Part shown: piece by piece, positions 32,286 to 33,049 of the stretch
Numbering within the stretch: position 1 is the first letter of the stretch
Layout: each line of letters begins with the position of its first letter
From: Escherichia coli
GTDB lineage: Bacteria > Pseudomonadota > Gammaproteobacteria > Enterobacterales > Enterobacteriaceae
NCBI RefSeq assembly: GCF_045037415.1
Contig: NZ_CP173438.1
DNA: 64,000 nucleotides
Strand: one strand, 5' to 3'
Position numbers and translations under genes: made by a program
The notes under the pieces: model-generated
The model's input: only the letters and a program-made list of their open reading frames with translations
Database searches by the model: none
Told to the model about the DNA's origin: nothing

Positions 32286-32389
32286 GGTCTTCGCGGCAGA
32301 GACCACGGCTGAAATACATAACGTTAGTGGGGAAAAAAGAAACGGCCTGGTGATGATCCTTGGCATAATGTGAGAACTCTTATCAAATT

Positions 32390-32410
32390 GAGAATGATCA
32401 TGATTATCAT
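32390..32410 (-). promoter_or_regulatory. Fur box upstream of chuT
   Basis: GAGAATGATCATGATTATCAT closely matches the Fur consensus GATAATGATAATCATTATC; about 105 bp upstream of chuT start. Confidence 0.65.
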
Positions 32411-32740
32411 TTGAGTTATATATGAAATACAACCGTCGATTCAATACGCACGGCGTTACAAGCGTATTTATTTTTGATTTTTATCAAGATGCTTCGTCAG
32501 CTAATGTTCTTGTTACCGATTAAATTTCAGCGCGGGAAAAAGCTGAGAACCCGGAGATATCGCGGCTTGCAGAGCAAAGAGAAGAGAAAATTATCACTGT
32601 TAACGACAACGTTTTGTGATGAGGTTGTGGGGGGATAGCCATAAACACAGGATGGTTTTCTGGATGCTGGATAGATTTCATAACCCCCTGTTTATTGTGT
32701 TAATGGCGGTTAAAAAAAGCTTGATCATAAAAAATTGATC

Positions 32741-32759
32741 GATAATAATTCTCATTATC
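32741..32759 (+). promoter_or_regulatory. Fur box upstream of chuA
   Basis: GATAATAATTCTCATTATC matches the Fur consensus; about 290 bp upstream of chuA ATG. Confidence 0.65.
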
Positions 32760-33019
32760 ACGTTTGAGTTTAACAAAATATGACATCATGGATAACAAAA
32801 TCATATCTTTTGTAAGGGAAAACGCACAGCACTCTTCACTTCAGACGTGGCGTACTACTTTGCCTGACAAAGAGGGCGTGCTTTTGCTGAATTATCAGAA
32901 ATATTCGGCAATTTTACGGGATATATACGCTAATAGCTTCCCGTGGTGATATCTAATCATTTGAATTGTAAATAAATTTATTTTTCGCCAGCCACCCCGG
33001 TATTAACCCAGGCAGCCAG

Positions 33020-33049
33020 CATTTTTTATTTTCCTCATGGAGAATCGCT
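33020..33049 (+). promoter_or_regulatory. candidate FourU-type RNA thermometer in the chuA 5-prime UTR
   Basis: U-run (ATTTTTTATTTT) just upstream of the GGAG Shine-Dalgarno and the ATG; such an element is described for shuA/chuA. Confidence 0.45.

What the first reader, a model, noticed from the sequence alone, without database searches (positions are those of the whole stretch)
32286..33049. Divergent chuT/chuA control region with two Fur boxes and a U-rich element upstream of the chuA ribosome-binding site
Near-consensus Fur boxes lie upstream of each divergent transcription unit. The chuA leader is long (about 290 nt from the Fur box to the ATG) and has a U-run directly upstream of the GGAG Shine-Dalgarno, consistent with the FourU RNA thermometer described for shuA/chuA. 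This would give combined iron and temperature control of haem uptake.
Basis: partly seen in the sequence, partly recalled or inferred. Interest (0 to 1): 0.4.

Follow-up and report, generated by a model that had tools for sequence, protein, structure and literature searches.

The report
Known chuA/chuT iron and temperature switch
This is the already well-studied control region of the E. coli haem-uptake genes chuA and chuT, switched on by low iron (Fur) and by body temperature (RNA thermometers), so the finding is correct but ordinary.

Summary
In the 64-kb window the 19-bp Fur consensus (up to 3 mismatches) matches only at 32390-32408 and 32741-32759 (0.02 expected by chance). Rfam family RF02597 (shuA/chuA FourU thermoregulator) matches 33021-33052 above its curated threshold and is identical to the family consensus. 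The hairpin 33028-33045 pairs UUUU with the GGAG ribosome-binding site. The leader is 292 nt.

All of this is published: Kouse 2013, Wei 2017, and Sy and Tree 2022. The published work was done on the identical 32-nt thermometer sequence.

- The conserved, annotated chuT start codon is at 32366, not 32285. The intergenic region is therefore 32367-33049.
- The chuT Fur box lies at +1 to +19 of the transcript, not upstream of it.
This B2-type allele carries one untested change in it (U39C).

The chuA leader also holds published CyaR, Hfq and Rho elements.

New here, from 80 related loci:
- A U-rich hairpin that covers the ribosome-binding site is kept upstream of the receptor gene in about 20 enterobacterial genera.
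- The long Escherichia leader sits exactly where those genera carry the small gene hemP. It is probably a decayed hemP.

Novelty: already known. Interest: low.

The parts
32364..32366 (-). chuT start codon (ATG), conserved and annotated
   Evidence: PGAP annotates chuT as 31452-32366. This ATG is present in all 6 Escherichia alleles aligned, whereas the ATG at 32285 is GCG/GCA/ACG in the others. It lies 42 nt downstream of the start site mapped for shuT.
32367..32408 (-). chuT 5' untranslated leader (42 nt), equal to the published shuT RNA thermometer; this allele has C at +39 where S. dysenteriae has U
   Evidence: The published shuT oligo sequence GATAATCATGATCATTCTCAATTTGATAAGAGTTCTCATATTATG differs from the window at one base. 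The predicted hairpin pairs AUUCU(14-18) with AGAGU(29-33). Its energy is -6.0/-3.5 kcal/mol at 25/37 C here, against -9.0/-5.8 for the U39 form. Function rests on PMC5458455.
32390..32408 (.). chuT Fur box, at +1..+19 of the chuT transcript
   Evidence: 16/19 match to the consensus. Conserved in 6 alleles, with one change in E. albertii. The position relative to the start site, the gel-shift result and the 5-nt deletion result are in PMC5458455.
32409..32444 (-). chuT promoter: -10 TATAAC (32415-32420), -35 TTGAAT (32439-32444), 18-nt spacer
   Evidence: Read directly from the sequence, placed against the published start site. The geometry fits the paper's 62-nt promoter fragment with 26 nt upstream of the promoter. 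Inferred, not tested here.
32445..32720 (.). Spacer between the two promoters, no assigned function
   Evidence: No Rfam match. Only short non-conserved ORFs. 32445-32500 is conserved among the alleles and 32500-32680 is variable.
32721..32749 (+). chuA sigma-70-like promoter: TTGATC, 17 nt, AATAAT
   Evidence: Promoter scan. Invariant in 7 of 7 Escherichia sequences. Lies 8 nt upstream of the mapped start site.
32741..32759 (.). chuA Fur box, overlapping the -10 element and +1
   Evidence: 17/19 on the - strand. Invariant in 7 of 7 alleles.
32758..33049 (+). chuA 5' untranslated leader (292 nt), UPEC/B2-type allele
   Evidence: The EHEC +1 (291-nt leader, PMC9002310) maps to window 32758. Identity to the O157:H7 leader is 83.7%, against 83.4% published for UPEC versus EHEC.
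32769..32847 (+). Stretch alignable to the 5' end of hemP of other genera (proposed hemP relic)
   Evidence: Local alignment to Citrobacter hemP 5' leader plus codons 1-23 at the equivalent distance from the receptor ATG, z = 7-10 against shuffles. nhmmer E 1e-6 when the promoter is included.
32788..32949 (+). 53-codon open frame inside the leader, not a conserved gene
   Evidence: Listed. Frameshifts between alleles. No Pfam or HemP profile match.
32935..32975 (+). Equivalent of EHEC +177..+217, the segment needed for strong repression and for Rho-dependent termination
   Evidence: Coordinates mapped. Function from PMC9002310, shown in EHEC only; this part of the leader differs between alleles.
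32969..33049 (+). Conserved 3' block of the leader, homologous to the hemP-hemR spacer of other Enterobacteriaceae
   Evidence: blastn 75-83% identity, E down to 1e-15. AGGCAGCCAGC is invariant or nearly so in 68 sequences.
33012..33025 (+). Predicted CyaR pairing site (CAGCCAGCAUUUUU with CyaR nt 20-33)
   Evidence: Duplex energy -20.1 kcal/mol, the best site in the leader; 0.2% of shuffles are as good. CyaR sequence verified as RF00112. The position agrees with 'about 15 nt upstream of the Shine-Dalgarno' in PMC9002310.
33028..33045 (+). FourU thermometer hairpin: AUUUUCC / UCAU loop / GGAGAAU (UUUU 33029-33032; ribosome-binding site GGAG 33039-33042)
   Evidence: Rfam RF02597. Minimum-free-energy structure at 20-45 C, both alone and within the full leader. 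The mutants at 33031 behave in the model as published. 33029 is also the equivalent of the published Rho-dependent 3' end at +271.
33050..33052 (+). chuA start codon

Best explanation
The region is the bidirectional control region of the E. coli haem-uptake (chu) locus, in its UPEC/B2-type allele.

Iron control. With iron, Fur-Fe2+ binds one 19-bp box on each side and blocks transcription. On the chuA side the box covers the -10 element and +1. On the chuT side it covers +1..+19.

Temperature control of chuA. Without iron, chuA is transcribed with a 292-nt leader. In its last 30 nt a 7-bp hairpin pairs AUUUUCC with GGAGAAU and hides the ribosome-binding site. This weak, U-rich stem holds at about 25 C and is opened enough at 37 C for ribosomes to start. 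This is the FourU thermometer.

Temperature control of chuT. The 42-nt chuT leader does the same job with a different imperfect hairpin.

Other layers on the chuA leader. CyaR pairs just upstream of the hairpin and activates translation. Hfq-dependent repressor sRNAs act at the ribosome-binding site. Rho terminates a fraction of transcripts at the U-tract.

What is shown and what is inferred. Shown here: the presence, position, conservation and predicted pairing of the elements. Taken from published experiments on identical or near-identical sequence: Fur binding, temperature response, CyaR and Rho effects. Inferred: that the single-base variant of the chuT thermometer in this allele still works.
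For: - Fur boxes are unique in 64 kb and conserved across Escherichia alleles.
- Rfam RF02597 matches above its gathering score with the consensus sequence, and again in three further Escherichia loci.
- The hairpin sequesters GGAG in the 32-mer and in the full leader at 25-42 C. Its energy is -8.4 kcal/mol at 25 C and -6.1 at 37 C.
- In the model, U33031C stabilises the hairpin (-8.7 at 37 C) and U33031A breaks it, so about 26% of the ribosome-binding site is unpaired. This agrees with the published reporter results for the same base.
- The start site, the leader length and the 83.7% identity to EHEC agree with the papers.
- The chuT leader equals the published shuT leader except for one base, and the start-site and Fur-box geometry fit exactly.
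- The CyaR site is found where published.
Against: - Thermodynamic folding does not predict opening of the chuA hairpin between 25 and 37 C; the ribosome-binding site stays more than 99% paired up to 42 C. The temperature response therefore rests on published experiments, not on anything computed here.
- A similar FourU-like hairpin upstream of Yersinia enterocolitica hemR1 gave no thermoregulation (PMC6158557), so structure alone does not prove function.
- The Rho, Hfq and ChiX data are from the EHEC allele, which is only 83.7% identical over the leader. ChiX repression was not seen with the UPEC leader.
- The chuT leader here has C39 instead of U39 and a predicted hairpin weaker by 2.3-3 kcal/mol. 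This variant is untested.
Confidence: 0.93

Rival explanations
1. The U-rich hairpin is only a constitutive brake on translation, or mainly a Rho/Hfq landing and termination site. It is not a temperature sensor, and the temperature effect comes from elsewhere.
For: - The folding model keeps the stem closed far above 37 C.
- Yersinia hemR1 has a comparable hairpin without thermoregulation.
- The Term-seq/Rho 3' end at +271 falls on the first U of the FourU run (33029), and Hfq crosslinks peak at the ribosome-binding site.
Against: - The 32-nt element alone was sufficient for thermoregulation.
- Single-base stabilising and destabilising mutations at the base equal to 33031 shifted expression as a thermometer predicts, in two laboratories.
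- mRNA levels did not change with temperature.
- The Rho effect is only about 1.4-fold.
Confidence: 0.05
2. chuT translation starts at the ATG at 32285. That would make a 123-nt chuT leader and a control region of 32286-33049.
For: - From 32285 the protein begins MVKRKKLFTALLALSWTFSVTA|AE, a classical signal peptide.
- Three other alleles have a Met at a similar place (MKKLF...).
- HemT relatives in other genera align only from about residue 23-51 of the long form.
- The 27-codon extension changes mostly by non-synonymous substitutions.
Against: - The codon at 32285 is Ala or Thr in the EHEC-type, MDR56 and E69 alleles, and the EHEC type has no Met nearby.
- The upstream ATG at 32366 and its AAGAG ribosome-binding site are conserved in all six alleles.
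- The only indel between the two ATGs is 9 nt, in frame.
- PGAP annotates 32366.
- The shuT leader ending at that ATG drives regulated reporter translation.
Confidence: 0.1
3. The open frame 32788-32949 in the chuA leader encodes a functional small protein (a divergent HemP or a regulatory upstream ORF), so the 'leader' is really a two-gene operon.
For: - A 53-codon ATG-started frame is open in this allele, and 34-45 codons are open in three others.
- It starts at the same distance from the receptor gene as hemP does in other genera, with the same ATGGATAAC.
Against: - The frame is broken by 1-nt indels between alleles, and the start is GTG/absent in L057.
- Differences between the UPEC and EHEC forms are nearly all non-synonymous (read).
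- No Pfam hit.
- HemP profile scores are below zero bits.
- The conserved HemP C-terminal domain is undetectable at DNA level.
Confidence: 0.04

Closest known systems
shuA/chuA 5' UTR FourU thermoregulator (Rfam RF02597; Kouse et al. 2013, PMC3660397)
   Same: Identical 32-nt sequence and structure. Same gene, same position (-29..+3), same long leader, and the same Fur-boxed promoter upstream.
   Different: Nothing in the thermometer itself. The rest of the leader is the UPEC/B2 allele, 83.7% identical to the EHEC/Shigella type.
shuT 5' UTR RNA thermometer with an intragenic Fur box (Wei, Kouse and Murphy 2017, PMC5458455)
   Same: The same 42-nt leader. Fur box at +1..+19. U15/U16 and the AAGAG ribosome-binding site are in the same places.
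   Different: One base differs: C39 here and U39 in S. dysenteriae and the EHEC-type alleles. The A7-U39 pair is lost, and the predicted hairpin is -6.0 rather than -9.0 kcal/mol at 25 C. This variant has not been tested.
Multi-input control of the EHEC chuA leader by CyaR, Rho, Hfq-dependent sRNAs (Sy and Tree 2022, PMC9002310)
   Same: The CyaR pairing site, the FourU hairpin and the U-tract termination position are all in the invariant 3' block of the leader. CyaR activation was also shown for a UPEC leader.
   Different: The Hfq-binding and repressing segment (+160..+217) is diverged in this allele. ChiX repression was not seen with the UPEC leader, and that leader gave 55% higher expression.
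Yersinia enterocolitica hemPRSTUV-1: FourU-like hairpin upstream of hemR1 (Jaworska et al. 2018, PMC6158557)
   Same: Orthologous receptor. A U-run pairs with the ribosome-binding site. The Fur-regulated promoter is about 300 nt upstream.
   Different: There the interval holds an intact hemP gene, the hairpin has an internal G-G mismatch, and no thermoregulation was found.
Salmonella agsA FourU thermometer (Waldminghaus et al. 2007; from my own knowledge and as cited)
   Same: Four U pairing with AGGA/GGAG in a short stem that melts gradually.
   Different: Unrelated gene (a small heat-shock protein) and a different sequence context. It responds to heat shock rather than to entry into a host. 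No sequence homology was tested.

Membership tests
Rfam RF02597 shuA_thermo (FourU thermometer of shuA/chuA) | Covariance-model score at or above the curated gathering score | tested here: met
   60.1 bits against 58, E 2.6e-8, model positions 1-32 of 32, every base equal to the consensus.
Rfam RF02597 shuA_thermo (FourU thermometer of shuA/chuA) | Four consecutive U pairing with the Shine-Dalgarno sequence in a short hairpin just upstream of the start codon | tested here: met
   U33029-U33032 pair with A33044, A33043, G33042 and A33041; C33033 and C33034 pair with G33040 and G33039. This is the minimum-free-energy structure at 20-45 C, alone and within the full leader.
Rfam RF02597 shuA_thermo (FourU thermometer of shuA/chuA) | Lies in the 5' leader of the TonB-dependent haem receptor gene shuA/chuA | tested here: met
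   The downstream ORF 33050-35032 is annotated ChuA/ShuA at 100% identity.
Rfam RF02597 shuA_thermo (FourU thermometer of shuA/chuA) | Translation rises from 25 to 37 C without a change in mRNA; stabilising and destabilising point mutations shift it | not testable with these tools
   Published for the identical 32-mer. The model reproduces the direction of the mutant effects.
Rfam RF02597 shuA_thermo (FourU thermometer of shuA/chuA) | Stem melts in the physiological temperature range | tested here: inconclusive
   Nearest-neighbour folding gives -8.4 kcal/mol at 25 C and -6.1 at 37 C, but keeps the ribosome-binding site more than 99% paired to 42 C. The model ignores ribosome competition.
Fur box / Fur-repressed promoter | Match to the 19-bp palindromic consensus GATAATGATAATCATTATC | tested here: met
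   16-17 of 19 at both sites. These are the only such sites in 64 kb; 0.02 expected.
Fur box / Fur-repressed promoter | Box overlaps the promoter or the start of transcription | tested here: met
   chuA: the box spans the -10 element AATAAT and the mapped +1 at 32758. chuT: the box spans +1..+19 of the mapped shuT transcript.
Fur box / Fur-repressed promoter | Fur binding and iron-dependent repression | not testable with these tools
   Published: shuT gel shift and fur mutant; chuA Fur repression cited.
shuT RNA thermometer (Wei et al. 2017) | 42-nt leader forming one hairpin that pairs U15/U16 and neighbours with the ribosome-binding site | tested here: met
   Predicted fold .(((((..(((..(((((..........)))))..))).))))). 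It has 14-18 paired to 29-33. 44 of 45 bases equal the published oligo.
shuT RNA thermometer (Wei et al. 2017) | Temperature-dependent translation and RNase T1 accessibility | not testable with these tools
   Published for the U39 form. The C39 form here is untested and predicted weaker.
HemP (hemin uptake protein, Pfam hemP family) for the leader ORF 32788-32949 | Profile match, including the conserved C-terminal ...GQ.YLLRQT..GKLILTK domain | tested here: not met
   No Pfam family at E up to 10. A HemP profile built from 74 neighbours scores -1.8 bits on this frame. A DNA profile of hemP without its promoter finds nothing.

The most novel reading that the evidence does not exclude
The unusually long chuA/shuA leader is a decayed hemP gene.

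Ancestral arrangement. The ancestral operon was Fur box, hemP, an 80-nt spacer, then hemR, as it still is in about 20 enterobacterial genera. In those genera the Fur box starts 298-321 nt upstream of the receptor ATG.

Escherichia arrangement. Escherichia keeps the same spacing (307-309 nt). It also keeps the same promoter and Fur box, the hemP 5' end (ATGGATAAC...), and the spacer. The spacer holds an ancestral U-rich hairpin that hides the ribosome-binding site and an invariant AGGCAGCCAGC block. The hemP reading frame has been lost.

Consequence. The now untranslated stretch would have become the platform for Rho termination and for Hfq/sRNA control.

Novelty. The literature read here states that the Shigella locus has no hemP homologue. 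No paper in the library mentions hemP, hemR and chuA together.
Probability: 0.55. Interest if true: 0.3.

Novelty: already known. Interest (0 to 1): 0.12.

Why it matters
The element is a textbook case of a pathogen combining two host cues, low iron and 37 C, to switch on haem uptake. Finding it here only confirms that the window carries the standard chu locus of a B2-type E. coli.

Two things have small added value:
- The B2-type chuT thermometer differs by one stem base from the only form tested. It may be leakier, which could matter for expression of the periplasmic haem-binding protein at low temperature.
- The comparative data suggest a simple origin for the 292-nt leader, and for its Rho and sRNA sensitivity, as a dead hemP gene. 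They also show that the hairpin covering the ribosome-binding site predates Escherichia.

Tried and rejected
- Leader ORF as a HemP protein: Pfam scan of the 61/53-aa leader ORF found no family. A HemP protein profile from 74 neighbouring genes, run against three-frame translations of six Escherichia leaders, gave only scores around or below zero.
- DNA profile of hemP with the Fur box and promoter removed: no hit on any Escherichia leader, while some shuffles scored. Homology of the middle and 3' part of the leader to hemP is therefore not demonstrable. The relic idea rests on spacing and on the two ends.
- RNAalifold on the 68-sequence alignment did not return the thermometer hairpin. It returned a 4-bp long-range helix, GGCA 33011-33014 with UGUC 33051-33054. 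The alignment has gaps in the loop.
- Counting pairs for the two hand-written registers gave 87-88% paired cells, against 50-73% when slid. True covariation was scarce: one pair with C-G to U-A in 7 sequences. Conservation of the hairpin outside Escherichia is therefore supported mainly by compatibility, not by covariation.
- Whole-length duplex folding of CyaR against the leader gave meaningless full-length pairings. It was replaced by a local test.
- One literature search with chuA/shuA/hemP as word starts returned only noise from author names and the plant hemp.
- I did not confirm that UTI89, the UPEC strain used by Kouse et al., has exactly this leader. Only the final 60 nt are shown to be invariant in all Escherichia alleles examined.

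Full report
**What is at the coordinates**

The stretch is the divergent region between chuT (minus strand) and chuA (plus strand) of the E. coli haem-uptake locus. A 951-nt query around it is 100% identical to many E. coli chromosomes. It is present once, always on the chromosome, in 2236 of 5426 complete genomes. There are two allele groups: 1222 genomes at 99% identity or more, and 1007 at 90-95%. The window is collinear with strain SK1144, where the locus (chuVUYXWT / chuAS) sits between yhiD and dctR in the acid-fitness island. The window's chuA leader is 83.7% identical to that of O157:H7. That matches the 83.4% published for UPEC versus EHEC leaders, so this is the UPEC/B2-type allele.

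**Fur boxes**

The 19-bp consensus with up to three mismatches matches only twice in 64 kb, at 32390-32408 and 32741-32759. The expectation is 0.02, and no shuffle reached this count. Both boxes are conserved in the Escherichia alleles I aligned. The chuA box and its -35 region are invariant in 7 of 7. The chuA box overlaps a sigma-70-like promoter, TTGATC-17-AATAAT at 32721-32749. It also overlaps the transcription start, which maps to window 32758 from the differential RNA-seq result in EHEC (291-nt leader there, 292 nt here because of one indel).

**The U-rich element**

Rfam RF02597, the shuA/chuA 5' UTR thermoregulator, matches 33021-33052 at 60.1 bits against a gathering score of 58. Every base equals the consensus. 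The same hit occurs in three other Escherichia loci and in none of 15 loci from other genera.

ViennaRNA gives the hairpin AUUUUCC (33028-33034) / UCAU / GGAGAAU (33039-33045) as the minimum-free-energy structure from 20 to 45 C. This holds both for the isolated 32-mer and within the whole leader. The energy is -6.1 kcal/mol at 37 C, against -2.0 +/- 1.7 for shuffles.

Folding at 25 versus 37 C does not settle thermosensing. The stem weakens from -8.4 to -6.1 kcal/mol, but the model keeps it closed to above 60 C. The functional claim rests on published work:
- The 32-nt element is sufficient for thermoregulation.
- U-to-C and U-to-A changes at position -19 (EHEC U273, window 33031) lower and raise expression respectively.
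- The model reproduces the direction of both mutants.

That codon is GCG, GCA or ACG in the EHEC-type, MDR56 and E69 alleles. The ATG at 32366 and its AAGAG ribosome-binding site are present in all six alleles, and the only indel between the two is 9 nt, in frame. PGAP annotates 32366 in both allele types. The intergenic region is therefore 32367-33049. The in vivo N-terminus remains unproven. The 27-codon extension evolves fast, and the second Met would give a textbook signal peptide. I keep that as a minor rival.
- *The chuT Fur box.* Wei, Kouse and Murphy mapped the shuT start site 42 nt upstream of that ATG, which is window 32408. They showed that the Fur box occupies +1..+19, binds Fur, and is needed for iron control. 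The box is therefore not upstream of the transcription unit. The promoter read from the sequence is TTGAAT-18-TATAAC at 32444-32415 on the minus strand.
- *A second thermometer.* The same 42-nt leader is a second RNA thermometer. The published oligo sequence of the Shigella leader differs from the window at one base, U39 there and C39 here. In the model this removes the A7-U39 pair and weakens the hairpin from -9.0 to -6.0 kcal/mol at 25 C. This B2-type variant is untested as far as I could find.

**Other published layers on the chuA leader, mapped to the window**

- The CyaR pairing site is about 15 nt upstream of the ribosome-binding site. I find it at 33012-33025: duplex energy -20.1 kcal/mol, the best site in the leader, with 0.2% of shuffles as good. 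The CyaR sequence was verified as RF00112.
- The strongly repressing segment needed for Rho action, +177..+217, maps to 32935-32975.
- The Rho-dependent 3' end at +271 maps to 33029, the first U of the FourU run.
- These were measured in EHEC. With a UPEC leader, CyaR activation was kept but ChiX repression was not.

**Comparison across genera**

A scan of one genome per species returned 80 loci encoding ChuA relatives, 57-98% identical. Only Escherichia has the divergent chuT. The other genera have the Yersinia-type order, with the T homologue downstream and an intact hemP gene between the Fur-boxed promoter and the receptor gene.

The last 65-85 nt of the E. coli leader are homologous to their hemP-hemR spacer (E down to 1e-15). 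In 68 distinct sequences, AGGCAGCCAGC and AUGGAG are invariant or nearly so. Nearly every sequence is predicted to pair a U-run with the ribosome-binding site.

Two registers, the Escherichia/Buttiauxella one and a longer one used by most genera, are each compatible with 87-88% of cells, against 50-73% for slid controls. There is little true covariation: one pair switches C-G to U-A in 7 sequences. A similar hairpin was already noted for Yersinia hemR1, where it did not confer thermoregulation. This extension is therefore modest.

**Origin of the long leader**

The Fur box starts 298-321 nt upstream of the receptor ATG in about 50 loci that have hemP. It starts 307-309 nt upstream in the four Escherichia alleles that lack hemP. 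Three lines of evidence bear on this:
- A DNA profile of the hemP promoter and gene matches the Escherichia promoter and early leader (E 1e-6 to 6e-8; 3 or more for 200 shuffles). Part of that signal is the Fur box itself.
- Without the box, pairwise alignment still joins window 32769-32847 to the Citrobacter hemP 5' leader and first 23 codons at the equivalent position (z 7-10).
- The conserved 3' half of hemP is not detectable, either by DNA profile, by protein profile or by Pfam.

The open frame in the leader is frameshifted between alleles. My reading, at roughly even odds, is that the leader is a decayed hemP. The literature I could read says that the Shigella locus has no hemP homologue.

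**Verdict**

Interest is low. The only loose ends are the one-base chuT thermometer variant, the true ChuT start, and the hemP-relic idea.

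Noticed in passing
window 32367-32408 (minus strand), base 32370: The B2-type chuT leader has C at +39, where the experimentally studied S. dysenteriae shuT leader and the EHEC-type alleles have U. The predicted thermometer hairpin is about 3 kcal/mol weaker at 25 C.
   Followed up: partly
window 32286-32366 (minus strand): The annotated ChuT has a 27-residue N-terminal extension (MPRIITRPFLFSPLTLCISAVVSAAKT) in front of a classical signal peptide. The extension stays in frame in six alleles (one 9-nt indel) but changes mostly by non-synonymous substitutions. An internal Met is present in some alleles and absent in the EHEC type.
   Followed up: partly
window 33010-33020, and alignment A2 columns 25-35: AGGCAGCCAGC just upstream of the thermometer is invariant or nearly so in 68 receptor leaders from about 20 genera. 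That is more conserved than the hairpin itself. It overlaps the predicted CyaR pairing site. RNAalifold pairs GGCA 33011-33014 with UGUC 33051-33054 over the start codon.
   Followed up: partly
L002 (Escherichia sp. MOD1-EC7003), alignment A1 columns 707-831 and about 300-400: A roughly 125-nt insertion that looks like an ERIC-type repeat (from memory) lies inside the chuA leader. A second, inverted copy lies upstream of the promoter. No chuT lies within 3 kb upstream in this lineage.
   Followed up: no
L084 (E. coli WP4-S17-ESBL-03), breakpoint equivalent to window about 32780: The match to the control region stops about 22 nt into the chuA leader. An IS26 transposase gene lies about 60 nt further on, followed by a truncated rlmJ. 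chuA, chuS, dctR and slp are missing at this site in that strain.
   Followed up: no
window 32786-32795 and 33035-33044: TCATGGATAA at the start of the leader ORF repeats as TCATGGAGAA at the chuA ribosome-binding site (direct repeat D4, 249 nt apart). Possibly chance.
   Followed up: no
window 32954-32980: TAATCATTTGAATTGTAAATAAATTT in the leader resembles the chuT Fur-box/promoter edge (repeats D2 and I1, 70-81%). A weak third Fur-like site was not tested.
   Followed up: no
window 6539-7887; 37605-39026: In the collinear SK1144 annotation there is an IS3-family IS1397 between yhjE and yhjD. Downstream of slp there is only a frameshifted fragment and arsC; arsR and arsB are not annotated.
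   Followed up: no
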